Notes: generated from the letters alone by a model not told the origin. Numbered from the stretch's first letter, positions 3,675 through 42,214 are shown. The stretch: 53,943 bases of DNA from a virus (IMGVR_UViG_2869947659_000002); one strand, 5' to 3'. Numbers and translations: made by a program.

Positions 3675-4493
3675 TTAAGCAGCTATCTGATGATATTTTT
3701 CCCTGAAGGCTGCCGGGGAGATATTCCCCAGACGAGAGTGACGACGCTGACGATTGTAGAAAATCTCAATGTATTCCCGTATTACTGAGATGGCTTCATC
3801 CCGGTTATTAAAACGATAGTGGCTCAGGCTCTCATTTTTCAGCGTTCCCCAGAAGCTTTCCATCGGAGCGTTGTCGTAACAGTGACCTTTACGCGACATT
3901 GATGTTTTCAGACCAGACTGCTCCTGTATGACCCGGTAATCGTATGCGCAGTACTGTGAACCTCGATCAGAGTGGTGGATTAGCCCGGCAGGTGGGCGCT
4001 GGCTCCTGAGCGCCATAAACAGGGCTTTACCTGTCAGCTCTTTTGTCATGCGCTCTCCCATGGCGTAGCCGACAATTTCGCACGTATAAACATCTTTGAT
4101 GCCAGCGAGGTACAACCATCCCTCCTGTGTGGCAACATACGTCAGGTCCGCCACCCAGACCTGATTTGGTGCTGTAGGAGCGAACGTCTGGTTCAGCAGA
4201 TTTGGCGCAACTGGCAGATTGTGGTTCGGGTTCGTAGTCGCTCTGAACTTGCGTTTCTGCTTACAGCGTAGCCTTAGCTCCTTACGAAGACGTGCCAGTC
4301 GGTCACGACCAACGATGATGCCATTCTCTGCCAGCTCCGTCTGGAGCCGCCGGGTTCCATATGTTTCGCGAGTGCGGATATGTGCCACCTTAATCTCCAG
4401 TTTTAGCCGCTCATCACTTTGTTTTCTGTCTGAGGGTTCATGCTGTACCCAGTTGTAATAACCGCTCCTGGATACACCAAATACCTGACACAT
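3675..4493 (-). CDS. IS3-family transposase OrfB (DDE integrase domain)
   Basis: 272-aa ORF; same protein (one residue different at the C-terminus) as the copy at 48769..49587. Confidence 0.9.
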   Translation of the reverse strand: MCQVFGVSRSGYYNWVQHEPSDRKQSDERLKLEIKVAHIRTRETYGTRRLQTELAENGIIVGRDRLARLRKELRLRCKQKRKFRATTNPNHNLPVAPNLLNQTFAPTAPNQVWVADLTYVATQEGWLYLAGIKDVYTCEIVGYAMGERMTKELTGKALFMALRSQRPPAGLIHHSDRGSQYCAYDYRVIQEQSGLKTSMSRKGHCYDNAPMESFWGTLKNESLSHYRFNNRDEAISVIREYIEIFYNRQRRHSRLGNISPAAFREKYHQIAA

Positions 4494-4528
4494 CGCTTCA
4501 ATGGGAAATTGTTGTCGCCATTGTTCGA

Positions 4529-4831
4529 TTAACGCGTATTTTTCAGCGACTCCTGTGCAAAATACGCTGTTGCTTTTTTTAATATATCTCGCTCAAGGCG
4601 AGCTTCATTTAACGCCTTACGCAGTTGCAGAATTTCAGATTCCAGTTCAGCCACCGTGCGGGAACCAGGAGTACCGAGCCCTTTTCTGGCGGCGGTAACC
4701 CATTGTCCTAAAGTGCCTTCAGGAAGGGATAATCGGGAAGCGCCTTCACTGATCGAAAGTTGATTTTCAAGAACCGTTCTGACAGCTTCGGCTTTGAACT
4801 CTTTAGAGTAACGTTGGTTTTTTCTGCTCAT
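4529..4831 (-). CDS. IS3-family OrfA (HTH/leucine zipper)
   Basis: 100-aa ORF MSRKNQRYSKEFKAEAVRTVLENQLSISEGA...; identical to the copy at 48431..48733. Confidence 0.9.
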   Translation of the reverse strand: MSRKNQRYSKEFKAEAVRTVLENQLSISEGASRLSLPEGTLGQWVTAARKGLGTPGSRTVAELESEILQLRKALNEARLERDILKKATAYFAQESLKNTR

Positions 4832-37962: not shown

Positions 37963-37993
37963 GAAAATAAAAACAAAAACCCGCCGAAGCGGG
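37963..37993 (-). terminator. intrinsic terminator at the 3' end of the hok mRNA
   Basis: Minus-strand hairpin CCCGCTTCGGCGGG followed by TTTTTGTTTTTATTTT. Confidence 0.5.
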
Positions 37994-38063
37994 TTAAGTG
38001 CGGGTGCGTTGAGGATGCCTGCCACATCAGAGGTGGCGAGGGATTTCTCCCTCGCCGGGTCTC

Positions 38064-38219
38064 TTACTCCTCAGGTTCGTAAGCTGTGAAGACAGCGACC
38101 TCCGTCTGGCCGGTTCGGATTCGTACCTCGCAGAGGTCTTTCCTCGTTACCAGTGCCGTCACTATGACGGTTAAACAGATGACGATCAGGGCGATTAGCA
38201 TCGCCTTTTGCTGCTTCAT
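38064..38219 (-). CDS. hokD: Hok/Gef-family type I toxin (HokD/RelF-like), with overlapping mok-like frame to 38276
   Basis: MKQQKAMLIALIVICLTVIVTALVTRKDLCEVRIRTGQTEVAVFTAYEPEE; six-frame ORF 38064..38276 gives the mok-like upstream extension. Confidence 0.9.
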   Translation of the reverse strand: MKQQKAMLIALIVICLTVIVTALVTRKDLCEVRIRTGQTEVAVFTAYEPEE

Positions 38220-38961
38220 AGCCTGCTTCTCCTTGCCTTTCGGCACGTAAGAGGCTAACCTACGTGTGTAGAGCATAGATATGGCCTCAGATTAATGTTA
38301 AGCGTCTTGCCGGACGCGTAATGTTAACTGGGGCTTTTCTCTATCTGCCTTTGGTGTTGATGCCCGAGGCAGATAGCCTCAAGCACCCGCAGCAATTCTA
38401 CTTAACTACCGTTACCTCGCCAATATGAAATCAATCAGAAAGGTGATCCATAAGAACAACAGCAAGACAATAAATTGCCATTACAGCAGCAATAGCCAGC
38501 GCACATTTGAGAACCAGCACCACAACCTCCTGTATTGGACGTACACCAGTCCTGATAAATATGAGGCTGTCTCGTCAGTGATTCAATACAACTACTGGGT
38601 ATAGTTTCTATGATTTTGTTCTGTGGAAATGGAAAACAGCAACCAGTCACCACCAGCACTTCTTTAAACATGCCAAGTCACACGCAAGCCAACATTATAG
38701 TTCCCTTTGAGCGAGCAGATGAAGCTAGCAAAAATATTGATCACTTAGGATGCATTACTAACGTTGCTATGTGTTAACGAACAGGGAGTGGGTCATCAGC
38801 ATAAATATTTATGCAGTAGGTTTCTTTTAGGACTAGATTAATCAAAAACATTTAGATAAAATTATAAAATCAAGAAATTGGTGGCAATTAATCTTTAATT
38901 GTGCCAGCTGAATTTCGTTATTATAGAAGATTAGCTTTTTTTTGAATGTTTGGAGAGTAAA

Positions 38962-39657
38962 ATGTTAGAACCACCAAAGAGTTATAATGAAATGTTGCCT
39001 ATGCTCCATAAGGCGACTTTTATTACTACATTTATATTTTACCTATCATTAGTCATTTATGGCTACATGCCATTGGTTGGCATTAATGCCAAGTATATCC
39101 TCCCCGTTAAAGACTACGAGGAATTTATTAAATGGATATTAACCTTTGGCATATTACCAATTGCATCTTCAGTTTTTTGGTCAGTAATTAGTGGAGCTTT
39201 AGATCTACATAATAATGTAGCAAAAATTATTGGAATAAGGAAGATGTGGGATAGTCATTTAATTATTAAACCATTAGCAAAAATTGCAGGCGTTACGAGA
39301 AAATTAACTACTGATGAATCTCACAAGGTAATGAGTAAACTGTATTACCCAGAAGTTAAAGAGTTAAAAGACAAACATTACGTTGAACTTTTCTGGAACA
39401 AAGTTTATTACTTTTGGGTTTTCTTTGAACATACAGTAATCGCATTTGTTACTATTTTAATAATAAGTATCGCCAAATTAACAAATATATTCTCTGTTAC
39501 TGGCTCTTTAATTAATCTTTGGTTGTGGATTATTTCTCTTGTCGCATTTGACTTCCTTATTTTCATAGCATCAGTTAAACCAAGAACAGAAAGCCAAGTA
39601 AGACAAATACCTGATAGCAAAATAAAAGAATTCTTTAACAATAACAATATTTTTTAA
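38962..39657 (+). CDS. hypothetical integral membrane protein (about 4 TM), AT-rich cargo
   Basis: ATG 38962 after GGAGAG; hydrophobic segments ATFITTFIFYLSLVIYGYMPLVGI, WILTFGILPIASSVFWSVISGAL, VYYFWVFFEHTVIAFVTILIISIA, LINLWLWIISLVAFDFLIFIASV; very low GC. Confidence 0.7.
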   Translation: MLEPPKSYNEMLPMLHKATFITTFIFYLSLVIYGYMPLVGINAKYILPVKDYEEFIKWILTFGILPIASSVFWSVISGALDLHNNVAKIIGIRKMWDSHLIIKPLAKIAGVTRKLTTDESHKVMSKLYYPEVKELKDKHYVELFWNKVYYFWVFFEHTVIAFVTILIISIAKLTNIFSVTGSLINLWLWIISLVAFDFLIFIASVKPRTESQVRQIPDSKIKEFFNNNNIF

Positions 39658-39663
39658 ACGAGG

Positions 39664-40323
39664 TTGATTTTGAATTACAAAATAAATGGAATAAACATAC
39701 GTTCAGAAAATGCAGCGAAACCGCACACTATGCCATCTAACTATCTCTGTAAACAGATTGAAAGCACTAATAAAAATGGCAATGCCCTTGATTTTGGATG
39801 TGGAAAACTTAGATATTCAGAACAATTAGTAAATAAATTTGAAACTGTGACATTTTTAGATTCCAGAAGACAACTAGAAAGAGTGCAAATTATCAGAGGT
39901 GTACAAACCACGATTCCAGATTACGTGATAAATAACTATAAGAATGCTAATATTGTTTCTTATGAAAATATAGATAAAATAACAAATCATTATGATTTCA
40001 TACTTTGCACAAACGTGCTTTCCGCAATTCCATGTGAATCCACAATTCACAAAGTCCTCAGTGCGATTAGAGAATTATTAAAGAGTGATGGTGAAGCACT
40101 GATTGTCAATCAATACAAAAGTTCTTATTTCAAGAGGTACGAGAGCGGTATTAAACATTTGCATGGGTATATATACCAAAACTCTCGTAATGCTTTCTAC
40201 TATGGTTTATTAGATGTGGATACTGTAAGTAAAATATGCTCAGATAATAATTTAGAAATAATAAAATCATGGAGCAAAGCAGGTAGTTCATATGTGGTTG
40301 TTGGTAAACATATACATATTTAG
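39664..40323 (+). CDS. hypothetical protein with class I SAM-methyltransferase fold, AT-rich cargo
   Basis: Motif I-like ALDFGCGKL, acidic post-I (TFLDS), motif II-like YDFILCTNVLSAIP; starts 6 bp after the membrane protein gene. Confidence 0.7.
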   Translation: MILNYKINGINIRSENAAKPHTMPSNYLCKQIESTNKNGNALDFGCGKLRYSEQLVNKFETVTFLDSRRQLERVQIIRGVQTTIPDYVINNYKNANIVSYENIDKITNHYDFILCTNVLSAIPCESTIHKVLSAIRELLKSDGEALIVNQYKSSYFKRYESGIKHLHGYIYQNSRNAFYYGLLDVDTVSKICSDNNLEIIKSWSKAGSSYVVVGKHIHI

Positions 40324-40638
40324 TTTATTTCAACAAATTATTAGAAAGAGTGATTTGCTTGTTAATTATTAGCTCGGCAGTGCCGGATCGACATGACCCT
40401 GCCACTTAGGCCATTGCCGGTTTACCTACTTTTGTAAGGTTCTGCATGAAGTTTTTATATACTCTTCCTAATATCAATAGTGATGCTCGCTTATGTTAGC
40501 TGCTTCTTGTACATAGTAGCCTTCTCCGACAGTACTGCAATGAGCGGAGAGTAAAAGTCGATAAACAATAAGGAGGTTCACAATAAATATTTCTCGGTGA
40601 AACTTTCAAAGCATTCTCTGTTTTGCTAAATCGACCAA

Positions 40639-41539
40639 TTATAAATCAACAACATTTAGTGTTATATCAATATTATTTAGCCTTGCAATCTCTGATGAAT
40701 CACTTGCTATTTTAGCTTTTAATTTATCAATATTAATCATATCTTCATGGCTTATATAAACCATATCACCTTGGTTAACTTTAGATTTGTTCACTATGGC
40801 TTGAATAACAGACAAATCATCCATTACACCTCTCATAAATTTCACCATGCTTTGATCTTTGAAGTCAGATATCGATTTTGAACGTTGCTTACGTTGAATT
40901 GTTCCTTTTGTAATTACTTCATTAATTTCTTTTAAACCAGTGAGCATATCAGACAGACTGCCTTCGCAACTCATCCGATGTTTTATTGCATTGCGATTAA
41001 TAATATTGAGTATAATTTCGAGTGAATCTTTATCACTCCATGGATGTAATGATGTATAATCATGATGGCGTCGAATGGCGTCAATCATATCCTGGACCAT
41101 ATCTTCATCTGCTTTATCGCAAAGTTCATTCACGAAATAGCTGGGGTCGATTATTTTACAATAACTTGGAGTTAGGTATCTTGAGGCTTTACAAAAACCA
41201 AAAATATATAAAGTAGAGTATTTATCTTTCAGACTCTCTCCTATTTCATTTGTTTCCTCAAAAGATTCGATAGTTTTTTTTAATTTTTGCTGGACTTGCA
41301 TTCGTAGTAACTTGAACTGCTATCATGTTTTTATTATCAGCTAAATCAATGGCGGGAAAATTAACTTTAATCTGATTCATGTTTACCAGTTCACCCATTT
41401 TCAGCGCGCGAAACATAAAGATGGTCAATGACTCAATTATTCTTTCCATGTCATGAAAGCCTGCCTGTTTGCGTTGCGCGATATAAAGCTGGAGTAGTGC
41501 AATATCACTCTGTAAGTTTCTAATAAGTGGATCAATCAT
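40639..41539 (-). CDS. hypothetical protein split into two ORFs (41258..41539 and 40639..41301) by a 1-nt frame change at an A8 tract
   Basis: ATG 41539 with AAAGGA RBS; upstream frame stops just after the A8 run (plus-strand T8 at 41274..41281); contraction to A7 would give one ORF of about 305 aa; second ORF has no RBS of its own. Confidence 0.5.
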
Positions 41540-41791
41540 AGCTAATAATCCTTTTCAATGAAGCTGGAGGTGTGTTTAACTATTAGTTAAATTTCTATTT
41601 TTATAGAAACAAGCTTTACAACTTCATCAAAGTTTCTCAAATCCTAATCCACTTTGCAAATCCACTAACCATGCTGAATGCTTTCTGTTGTTAAACATAT
41701 CCGCTGCTGGCACCAAGCAGACAAACACACTAACTCTACCCTACTCCACAAAAGAGCCAATCAATATCTGAACTAATAAACTTTAATCTCA

Positions 41792-42214
41792 TCACTTCAA
41801 TAAATATCGAGCATTTCCCTGATAGAATGCTAGTATGCGCTGCATAACTTCACTCTTCCGGCACTCGCGACAGATTATGTTCTGACGCCTGTCGTAGCGA
41901 CGTATTTCTCCGTCAGGTAATGACCAGATAAGGTCCGGATCAACCGCAGATGGTTCCTTCAGCTTTGCCCTTGAGAGCTTTTTACGGGCATTTTGCCAGT
42001 CCTTACGCGCCTGTTCAGACGGGAATAACCCGTAACCAGAGTTGTATACATCGCCGCTGGCAACCAGCTCTCTTGCGAGAACGCTCATCAGATATCTTGT
42101 CGCACCTGTCTTGACTTCCAGTTGCCGTAACGTCTCACGACCGCTCTGGCGCACGAGTTCCACCACCTGCCCTTTAATTTTTTCCCGCTCTTCTTGTGTA
42201 AAAACTTTTGCCAC
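41792..42214 (-). CDS. hypothetical early-region protein (140 aa)
   Basis: ORF downstream of the replication-initiator-like gene; basic, contains CRECRK; no family recognised. Confidence 0.5.
   Translation of the reverse strand: MAKVFTQEEREKIKGQVVELVRQSGRETLRQLEVKTGATRYLMSVLARELVASGDVYNSGYGLFPSEQARKDWQNARKKLSRAKLKEPSAVDPDLIWSLPDGEIRRYDRRQNIICRECRKSEVMQRILAFYQGNARYLLK

What the first reader, a model, noticed from the sequence alone, without database searches (positions are those of the whole stretch)
38895..40323. AT-rich two-gene operon: 4-TM membrane protein plus methyltransferase-fold protein
The two genes are opposite in orientation to the phage early operon, separated by only 6 bp, and have much lower GC than the prophage; a plausible promoter lies at about 38895..38925. 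A membrane protein paired with a SAM-binding-fold protein at a prophage hotspot (the place where Qin carries relBE, ydfV and flxA) does not match any named system I can recall. It could be a defence or abortive-infection module, or a surface-modification function.
Basis: inference. Interest (0 to 1): 0.75.

Follow-up and report, generated by a model that had tools for sequence, protein, structure and literature searches.

The report
Prophage membrane-protein plus methyltransferase anti-phage pair
The two AT-rich genes are a divergent copy of the E. coli K-12 e14 prophage operon ymfE-ymfD, whose membrane protein was reported in a September 2026 preprint to protect against T5-like phages, and here the methyltransferase gene follows the membrane gene in every relative examined, a pairing that preprint does not mention.

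Summary
Two same-strand genes (38962..39657 and 39670..40323, GC 0.31) sit in a 3-kb AT-rich island of a Qin-site lambdoid prophage. They point opposite to the replication genes. The first encodes a 231-aa protein with four transmembrane helices; the second a 217-aa class I SAM-methyltransferase-fold protein.

The pair is not orphan. It is homologous over its full length to E. coli K-12 e14 ymfE (60% aa identity) and ymfD (68%), in the same order. A bioRxiv preprint of 11 Sep 2026 renamed YmfE "Kunado". It reports that YmfE is silenced by H-NS, protects against T5-like phages without blocking adsorption, and works when cloned alone. The preprint never mentions ymfD.

New here: in all 57 loci where downstream DNA was present (36 distinct protein pairs, Enterobacterales to Acidobacteriota), the membrane gene is followed directly by the methyltransferase gene. 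Seven of seven distant methyltransferase-anchored loci show the reverse pairing. Both genes are under purifying selection. The cassette sits in prophage accessory slots and next to Hachiman, ABC-3C, SIR2-STAND and Lit.

Neither protein matches a characterised family closely, and the membrane fold has no match among solved or viral structures.

Verdict: a new member of a just-described defence family. The role of the methyltransferase is open.

The parts
38650..41800 (.). AT-rich island (GC 0.33) between hokD/sok and the prophage replication module. It holds the two-gene operon and a convergent SMEK-domain gene.
   Evidence: Composition profile and GC values. Present at 99% identity or more in 146 of 5426 complete E. 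coli genomes, and in 151 overall.
38790..38961 (+). Upstream region that travels with the cassette in relatives 81-90% identical (membrane protein). It contains a -10-like TATTAT (38919..38924) and the ribosome-binding site GGAGAG (38952..38957). A promoter here is inferred, not shown.
   Evidence: Alignment of upstream regions from 14 loci. The consensus scan found no strong sigma-70 site on the + strand here.
38962..39657 (+). ymfE-like (Kunado-family) gene. It encodes a 231-aa inner-membrane protein with four transmembrane helices (about 18-40, 57-80, 148-172 and 183-205). The N-terminus, a 67-residue basic helical loop (81-147) and the C-tail are predicted to be cytoplasmic.
   Evidence: 60% identity to K-12 YmfE, E 5e-107. 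Hydropathy and charge distribution. AF2 pLDDT 88. No Pfam, NCBIfam, PADLOC or PHROG hit. dN/dS 0.08-0.15.
39670..40323 (+). ymfD-like gene. It encodes a 217-aa class I SAM-dependent methyltransferase-fold protein with an intact glycine-rich SAM motif (LDFGCGKLRYS) and an acidic residue after strand 2 (FLDS). The alternative start is TTG 39664.
   Evidence: 68% identity to K-12 YmfD, E 4e-113. Pfam Methyltransf_23 6.5e-9. Invariant residues in a 33-sequence alignment. AF2 pLDDT 89.7. Foldseek class I methyltransferases. dN/dS 0.12-0.31.
40639..41539 (-). Neighbouring SMEK_N-domain gene, frameshifted in this window by one extra A in a poly-A run near 41281. It shares the island but is not an obligate partner of the pair.
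   Evidence: Pfam and NCBIfam SMEK_N. The intact 299-aa form exists elsewhere. The frameshift was located. It co-occurs only in a subset of enterobacterial copies whose membrane protein is 83% or more identical to the window's.

Best explanation
The locus is a divergent allele of the e14 ymfE-ymfD operon, a prophage-borne anti-phage module of the Kunado family.

The first gene makes a small inner-membrane protein. Its conserved parts are a basic cytoplasmic helical domain between TM2 and TM3 and a glutamate buried in TM3. By homology, this protein stops infection by certain phages (T5-like in the K-12 homologue) after adsorption. The most likely point of action is genome entry across the inner membrane, or a step directly after it.

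The second gene, 6 or 12 bp downstream, makes a cytoplasmic SAM-dependent methyltransferase. It is co-inherited with the membrane protein in every relative examined. I infer that it acts at the membrane protein's cytoplasmic face as a modulator or second activity: methylating the membrane protein, a phage factor or a host factor, and tuning range or cost. I do not think it is the essential effector, because YmfE alone protected in K-12.

The 70% A+T content makes silencing by H-NS likely, as measured for the e14 copy.

Shown here: homology, architecture, strict pairing, purifying selection, mobility between accessory sites.
Taken from the preprint: anti-phage activity of the e14 homologue, its H-NS silencing, and no block of adsorption.
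Inferred: activity and target range of this allele, block of DNA entry, and any role of methylation.
For: Homology:
- Full-length homology to K-12 YmfE (60%) and YmfD (68%), in the same gene order.

Experimental evidence on the homologue (preprint 10.64898/2026.09.05.749240):
- Deleting ymfE in a delta-hns strain restores T5-like phage infectivity.
- Cloned ymfE protects a prophage-free strain against phages that use different receptors.
- Adsorption is not blocked.
- The lit/ymfE locus is bound and compacted by H-NS.
- An independent study lists the ymfD/ymfE region in a table of K-12 'promoter islands' in its section on H-NS complex formation (PMC3661553).

Pairing and selection:
- 57 of 57 loci with downstream DNA have the methyltransferase gene directly after the membrane gene.
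- 7 of 7 distant methyltransferase-anchored loci have the membrane gene upstream, often with overlapping start and stop codons.
- The divergence of the two proteins is correlated, r = 0.96, and both have dN/dS well below 1.

Mobile and defence contexts:
- After ogr in P2-like prophages.
- In an island with a P4-type cII/beta module, a relaxase and a reverse transcriptase.
- Next to Lit in e14, Hachiman, ABC-3C systems and a Dcm/HD-CE/ORC-CDC6-like system, and SIR2-STAND.

Conserved residues:
- The family-wide conserved residues H83, R93, D97, Y129, H139, W152 and E156 are all present in the window protein.
- The methyltransferase keeps all invariant residues of its family.
Against: - No experiment exists on this allele, and 60% identity leaves room for a different target range or none.
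- The only functional evidence is one unreviewed preprint, and its supplementary data could not be read.
- PADLOC (2023) does not recognise either protein beyond a weak match to a generic methyltransferase domain.
- Block of DNA entry is the preprint authors' suggestion, not a measurement.
- The methyltransferase appears dispensable for the one phenotype reported, so its strict conservation is unexplained.
- No match was found in 50,697 deposited phage genomes, so carriage by an active phage is not shown.
Confidence: 0.6

Rival explanations
1. It is an abortive-infection pair. The membrane protein is a latent pore or depolarising effector. The methyltransferase-fold protein senses infection (for example phage-induced SAM depletion, or a phage protein) and releases it, so the infected cell dies before phage release.
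For: - Small four-helix membrane effectors paired with a cytoplasmic partner are common among defence systems (general knowledge).
- A conserved glutamate lies inside TM3.
- All three IS-disrupted copies hit the membrane gene and leave the methyltransferase gene intact, which fits a costly effector.
- The e14 copy lies next to the abortive-infection protease Lit.
- The text I could read reports no assay for Kunado that separates entry block from abortive infection.
Against: - YmfE alone, on a multicopy plasmid with its own promoter, protected and was tolerated without the partner. A sensor-dependent effector should be inactive alone, and an antitoxin-dependent one should be toxic alone.
- Three IS cases are only an anecdote.
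Confidence: 0.15
2. It is a metabolic or envelope-modifying cargo. The enzyme methylates a lipid, quinone or toxic small molecule at the membrane (a TehA/TehB-like arrangement), or modifies a surface component. Any effect on phages would be indirect.
For: - The methyltransferase's nearest matches include TehB (Pfam 26.8 bits, above the 20.4 cut-off; PDB profile E 0.003), UbiG and small-molecule O-methyltransferases.
- PmtA appears weakly.
- tehAB is also a membrane-protein plus methyltransferase operon (general knowledge).
Against: - All these matches are generic class I similarities: 16% identity or less, TM-score about 0.6, and NCBIfam TehB scores of 16-32 bits against cut-offs of 218-303.
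- The partner is not TehA-like, and has no Pfam hit and no structural neighbour.
- Periplasmic exposure is only about 16 and 10 residues, which argues against surface modification.
- The cassette lives on mobile elements beside defence genes.
- Deleting ymfD gives no growth phenotype (PMC12096079).
- The homologue has a direct anti-phage phenotype without the enzyme.
Confidence: 0.08
3. The two genes are functionally independent neighbours. The membrane protein is a stand-alone superinfection-exclusion gene, and the methyltransferase is an unrelated cargo, for example a nucleic-acid methyltransferase.
For: - YmfE is sufficient for the reported phenotype.
- The ymfD knock-out lowered m6A peak counts in mRNA, but so did three unrelated knock-outs.
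Against: - Pairing is complete in both directions across distant phyla, often with overlapping or abutting reading frames, while everything around the pair changes.
- Divergence of the two proteins is correlated.
- No DNA-methyltransferase family is matched.
Confidence: 0.07

Closest known systems
Kunado (YmfE) of E. coli K-12 prophage e14, with its downstream gene ymfD (bioRxiv 10.64898/2026.09.05.749240)
   Same: - Full-length homology of both proteins (60% and 68% identity).
- Same gene order, with the two genes nearly abutting.
- Both are AT-rich and carried on a prophage.
- The family-wide conserved residues are kept.
   Different: - It is a different allele lineage: no megablast match at the DNA level.
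- It sits in a different prophage and site, between hokD and the replication genes of a Qin-site lambdoid prophage rather than at the lit/int end of e14.
- The upstream region differs.
- Its neighbour is a SMEK-domain gene instead of lit.
- Its activity and phage range are untested.
Membrane superinfection-exclusion proteins that block DNA entry (T4 Imm, P22 SieA, HK97 gp15; recalled from the literature)
   Same: A small inner-membrane protein encoded by a (pro)phage. In the homologue, protection comes after adsorption and is independent of the receptor used.
   Different: No sequence or fold similarity to anything in the viral structure library. None of those proteins is known to me to have an obligate methyltransferase partner. 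Block of entry has not been measured for this family.
TehA/TehB tellurite-resistance operon
   Same: A membrane protein plus a small class I SAM methyltransferase in one operon, with weak TehB-family matches.
   Different: Scores lie far below the TehB equivalog cut-offs. The membrane partner is unrelated to TehA. The pair is mobile and sits among defence genes rather than in a chromosomal housekeeping context.
Kiwa (KwaA membrane protein plus KwaB) and other defence pairs with a membrane protein and a cytoplasmic partner
   Same: Two-gene architecture with a multi-pass membrane protein first, located in defence islands.
   Different: No PADLOC match to KwaA, KwaB or any other membrane-component model. 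The partner here is an enzyme with a SAM-methyltransferase fold.

Membership tests
Kunado / YmfE family | Full-length sequence homology to E. coli K-12 YmfE (b1138) | tested here: met
   BLASTP gives 60% identity over 230 of 231 residues, E 5e-107. The K-12 locus scores 381.9 bits against the family profile.
Kunado / YmfE family | Small protein of about 220-250 aa with predicted membrane-spanning helices | tested here: met
   Hydropathy, AF2 helices, charge distribution. Family members are nearly all 218-250 aa.
Kunado / YmfE family | Protection against T5-like phages after adsorption | not testable with these tools
   Reported only for the e14 protein. It needs plaque and adsorption assays on this allele.
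Kunado / YmfE family | AT-rich, H-NS-silenced locus on a mobile element | tested here: inconclusive
   AT-richness (GC 0.31) and prophage location are met. H-NS binding cannot be tested here; it was measured only for e14.
YmfD-type class I SAM-dependent methyltransferase | Rossmann-type class I fold with a glycine-rich SAM-binding motif and an acidic residue after strand 2 | tested here: met
   Pfam Methyltransf_23, _12 and _11. D41, G43 and D64 are invariant in 33 sequences. Foldseek probability is 1.00 to many class I methyltransferases.
YmfD-type class I SAM-dependent methyltransferase | Homology to K-12 YmfD, and a position directly downstream of a YmfE-family gene | tested here: met
   68% identity, E 4e-113. 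Adjacency holds in 57 of 57 loci.
YmfD-type class I SAM-dependent methyltransferase | Methyl-transfer activity and a known substrate | not testable with these tools
   No characterised close relative: no PDB sequence hit with the single sequence, and only marginal profile hits.
TehAB tellurite resistance | TehB equivalog-level similarity and a TehA partner | tested here: not met
   NCBIfam TehB models score 16-32 bits against cut-offs of 218-303. The membrane protein matches no Pfam family at all, hence none for TehA.
DNA methyltransferase of a restriction-modification, BREX or MADS-type system | Match to a DNA methyltransferase family, with a target-recognition region | tested here: not met
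   No DNA-methylase Pfam or NCBIfam family is matched. PADLOC gives only mad2 at 1e-4 over the generic SAM domain. The protein is 217 aa with no extra domain.
Defence systems catalogued in PADLOC-DB 2.0.0 (2023) | A profile match of either protein to a catalogued system component | tested here: not met
   No hit for the membrane protein, and only the weak mad2 hit for the enzyme.

The most novel reading that the evidence does not exclude
Kunado is not a single-gene exclusion protein but an obligate two-component system found from Proteobacteria to Acidobacteriota, in which SAM-dependent methylation at the inner membrane is part of the immune mechanism. The methyl group could go onto the membrane protein, an incoming phage ejection or pre-early protein, or a lipid, and would set the range, the trigger or the self-protection. 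That would be a defence principle with no described precedent. The single-gene phenotype seen in K-12 would then be only part of the system's activity.
Probability: 0.25. Interest if true: 0.75.

Novelty: new member of a known kind. Interest (0 to 1): 0.5.

Why it matters
The family became known only through one 2026 preprint, which describes it as a single gene in one laboratory strain.

This window shows a second allele lineage in E. coli. It is present in 151 of 5426 complete genomes, against 283 for the e14 type.

The comparative data show that the membrane gene is paired with a distinctive methyltransferase gene in every locus examined, across distant bacteria. That turns an unexplained K-12 gene (ymfD) into a testable question: what does a methyltransferase do in a membrane-based anti-phage module?

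It also gives natural variants for mapping phage specificity. And it adds a case to the idea that AT-rich, H-NS-silenced prophage cargo hides active immunity genes.

Tried and rejected
- Pfam, NCBIfam, PADLOC and PHROGs gave nothing for the membrane protein.
- Foldseek of its confident model found no match at E 0.001 or better, against PDB or the viral library BFVD. A PDB profile search also found nothing.
- The methyltransferase gave only generic class I neighbours, so no substrate can be inferred. TehB, UbiG, PmtA and DNA-methyltransferase assignments were considered and rejected on score.
- Rfam found only sok and a sub-threshold isrK-like match outside the pair.
- The repeat search found no bounding repeats for the island.
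- Deposited phage genomes have no copy.
- Literature searches by accession and b-number added nothing. The SOS time course shows no induction of ymfD or ymfE.
- The preprint's supplementary files could not be read, so I could not confirm that the cloned fragment excluded ymfD or that a ymfD deletion was among the Keio strains screened.
- A structure prediction of the two proteins as a complex was not possible with the tools or remaining quota.

Full report
**1. The observation**

The window is an E. coli lambdoid prophage at the Qin site. It is 99.8% identical over the island to strain L65, where the prophage lies next to rspAB/ynfA.

On the + strand there are two adjacent ORFs, 38950/38962..39657 and 39664/39670..40323.
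- Gene A most likely starts at ATG 38962. GGAGAG lies at 38952-38957, and every homologue begins MLEPPK or MFEPPK.
- Gene B most likely starts at TTG 39670. GAGG lies at 39660-39663, and relatives begin MNYKING at that position. The highly conserved N-terminal SENAAKPHT block rules out the shorter 197-aa annotation that is common in databases.

GC is 0.305 and 0.315 for the two genes, against 0.507 for the window. The low-GC stretch runs from about 38650 to 41800.

The pair points away from the - strand replication genes. It occupies the position after hokD/sok (sok RNA, Rfam 114 bits) where K-12 Qin carries relEB, ydfV and flxA.

The consensus scan reports no + strand site there, although a TATTAT-like -10 at 38919..38924 is conserved in close relatives.

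**2. What the proteins are**

*Gene A.* It encodes a 231-aa protein with four hydrophobic helices. The AF2 model is confident (pLDDT 88, pTM 0.82).

Charge distribution puts the N-terminus, the 67-residue loop 81-147 (13 K+R against 8 D+E) and the C-tail in the cytoplasm. Only about 16 and 10 residues would face the periplasm.

It matches nothing in Pfam, NCBIfam, PADLOC or PHROGs. It also has no match among PDB sequences, PDB structures or the viral structure library.

*Gene B.* It encodes a 217-aa class I SAM-methyltransferase-fold protein (Pfam Methyltransf_23 6.5e-9; AF2 pLDDT 89.7). Its structural neighbours are generic: Trm9, small-molecule O-methyltransferases, NNMT and DhpI, with TM-score about 0.6 and identity of 16% or less. 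Profile hits to PDB sequences are marginal: a rickettsial protein-lysine methyltransferase, TehB and UbiG. No substrate can be inferred.

**3. It is the ymfE-ymfD pair**

One methyltransferase homologue was labelled ymfD by its source. The K-12 e14 locus confirms the link.
- The window proteins are 60% identical to YmfE (E 5e-107) and 68% identical to YmfD (E 4e-113).
- The gene order is the same and the genes nearly abut.
- The upstream DNA is not conserved between the two lineages, and megablast does not connect them.

The e14 type is in 283 of 5426 complete E. coli genomes. The window type is in 151: 146 at 99% identity or more, and 5 at 80-90%.

**4. What is known about the homologue**

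A bioRxiv preprint dated 11 Sep 2026 (10.64898/2026.09.05.749240) reports the following:
- Deleting hns in BW25113 or MG1655 uncovers resistance to T4-like and T5-like phages, and this maps to e14.
- Among Keio deletions of e14 genes, lit accounts for the T4 effect and ymfE for the T5-like effect.
- Cloned ymfE under its own promoter protects a prophage-free strain against T5-like phages that use different receptors.
- Adsorption is not blocked.
- The lit/ymfE locus is bound and compacted by H-NS.

The authors rename YmfE "Kunado" and suggest that it blocks DNA injection. The words ymfD and methyltransferase do not occur in the preprint.

Other literature adds little on ymfD and ymfE:
- The ymfD/ymfE region appears in a table of K-12 'promoter islands' in that paper's section on H-NS complex formation (PMC3661553).
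- A ymfD knock-out has no growth defect and no specific role in mRNA m6A (PMC12096079).
- A ymfD point mutation was neutral in an evolution experiment (PMC6828540).
- Neither gene is induced by SOS (PMC11002266).

**5. New comparative evidence: an invariant two-gene module**

*Family size.* A word-indexed search found only 39 clusters of the membrane protein at 90% identity. A profile search of 1.84 billion representatives found 220 clusters at 50% identity, nearly all 218-250 aa.

*Pairing.* I collected 58 loci from genomes, metagenomes and prophage contigs, giving 36 distinct protein pairs.
- Every membrane gene whose downstream DNA was present is followed directly, on the same strand, by a YmfD-family gene. 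The single exception ends at a contig edge.
- Starting from the enzyme instead, 7 of 7 distant homologues (41-48% identity) have a YmfE-family gene immediately upstream, often overlapping it. These come from Microbulbifer, Neptuniibacter, Pseudomonas, Colwellia, Marinobacter, Aeromonas and a marine metagenome.
- Acidobacteriota MAGs keep the pair even at 26% identity.

*Selection.* The divergence of the two proteins is correlated (r = 0.96). dN/dS against the window is 0.08-0.15 for the membrane gene and 0.12-0.31 for the enzyme. Correlated divergence is expected for any linked genes. The complete adjacency while all surroundings change is the stronger argument.

*Conserved residues.* Across 127 family members (median 21% identity to the window) the best-conserved residues are Y8, H83, R93, D97, M124, Y128, Y129, H139, W152, E156 and I216. 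These lie in the cytoplasmic loop and in TM3, where E156 is a buried glutamate. The window protein has all of them. The enzyme family has distinctive invariant blocks (NAAK, LDxGCGKLRY, DSxxQxxRxQ, NVxSAxP, NQxxSYFK), all kept here.

**6. Context**

The cassette sits in a different accessory position in each element:
- Between hokD and the replication genes in this prophage, and in a different lambdoid prophage in strain ECO21.
- At the lit/int end of e14.
- After ogr in P2-like prophages of Providencia and Enterobacter.
- In an island with a P4-type cII/beta module, a relaxase and a reverse transcriptase.
- In Pseudomonas, next to Hachiman, two ABC-3C systems and a Dcm/HD-CE/ORC-CDC6-like system.
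- Near a SIR2-STAND gene in Acidobacteriota.
- Beside transposases, resolvases, YoeB/YefM and Fic elsewhere.

This is the pattern of a mobile defence cassette. It is absent from 50,697 deposited phage genomes and occurs on only 3 plasmids.

Three copies are disrupted by insertions. All three insertions are in the membrane gene and leave the enzyme gene intact. That fits a costly membrane protein, but three cases are an anecdote.

**7. Mechanism**

The best-supported reading is that the membrane protein is the effector and acts at the cytoplasmic face of the inner membrane after adsorption. The enzyme would be an accessory partner.
- YmfE alone protected in K-12, so the enzyme is not required for that phenotype. 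It is also not a strict antitoxin, and the membrane protein is not merely its anchor.
- Its universal conservation argues that it nevertheless contributes. It could broaden range, set a trigger or limit cost. This part is inference.
- Because T5-like phages that use different receptors are all affected, a conserved post-adsorption step is a plausible target. Candidates are channel formation or T5's two-step DNA transfer. This too is inference.
- Abortive infection is not excluded, because the text I could read reports no survival or membrane-potential data for Kunado.
- A TehAB-like or lipid-modifying role is unlikely on scores, topology and context.

**8. Comparison with what is known, and verdict**

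The locus passes the testable membership criteria for the Kunado/YmfE family and for the YmfD-type methyltransferase family. It fails those for TehAB, for DNA-methyltransferase-based systems and for all PADLOC-catalogued systems.

It is therefore a new member, and a distinct allele lineage, of a family described in one recent preprint. It is not a new kind of system.

What remains open, and is not addressed by that preprint, is the invariable methyltransferase partner.

I rate interest as moderate (0.5). The biology is newly emerging and mechanistically unexplained, but the core discovery has been made elsewhere and nothing here tests function.

Noticed in passing
window 40639..41539 (-): A SMEK_N-domain gene is split into two ORFs by one extra A in a poly-A run near 41281 (A8 against A7). 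The intact 299-aa form (WP_000566847.1) exists in other strains. It travels convergently with the pair in a subset of enterobacterial copies whose membrane protein is 83% or more identical to the window's, including a different lambdoid prophage (L062), but not in e14, P2-like, P4-like or Pseudomonas loci. PADLOC matches its N-terminal part to an Aga_REase-PNTD1-PNTD2 model at 5.7e-17.
   Followed up: partly
window 38064..38388 (-): A hokD/sok type I toxin-antitoxin locus lies directly upstream of the operon and divergent from it (sok RNA, Rfam RF01794, 114 bits). A sub-threshold isrK-like match lies at 37974..38055.
   Followed up: partly
L060 1523..3417; L061 1523..2695; L059 4984..6902: Three natural copies of the cassette carry an insertion (IS5 and IS1 in the two annotated genomes; the insert in L059 was not identified). 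All three are in the membrane gene and leave the methyltransferase gene intact.
   Followed up: partly
L019, L020, L021: Copies 100% or 90% identical to the window cassette lie on short contigs filed under Candidatus Scatousia, a Haemophilus MAG and a Streptomyces assembly. These are probably mis-binned or contaminant enterobacterial DNA rather than real hosts.
   Followed up: no
L012 about 4240..4690 (K-12 e14, lit-ymfE intergenic region): The e14 copy has a run of TTTCATCA-like tandem repeats upstream of ymfE that is absent from the window allele.
   Followed up: no
L013 986..5146: In Microbulbifer the pair is preceded, on the same strand, by a 224-aa protein and two proteins of about 570 aa, none with a Pfam match. 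These may be further uncharacterised cargo of the same island.
   Followed up: partly
window 39730 (internal ATG) against 39670 (TTG): Many database entries annotate the methyltransferase as 197 aa, starting at the internal ATG. That start removes the invariant N-terminal NAAK block, so those entries are probably truncated annotations.
   Followed up: yes
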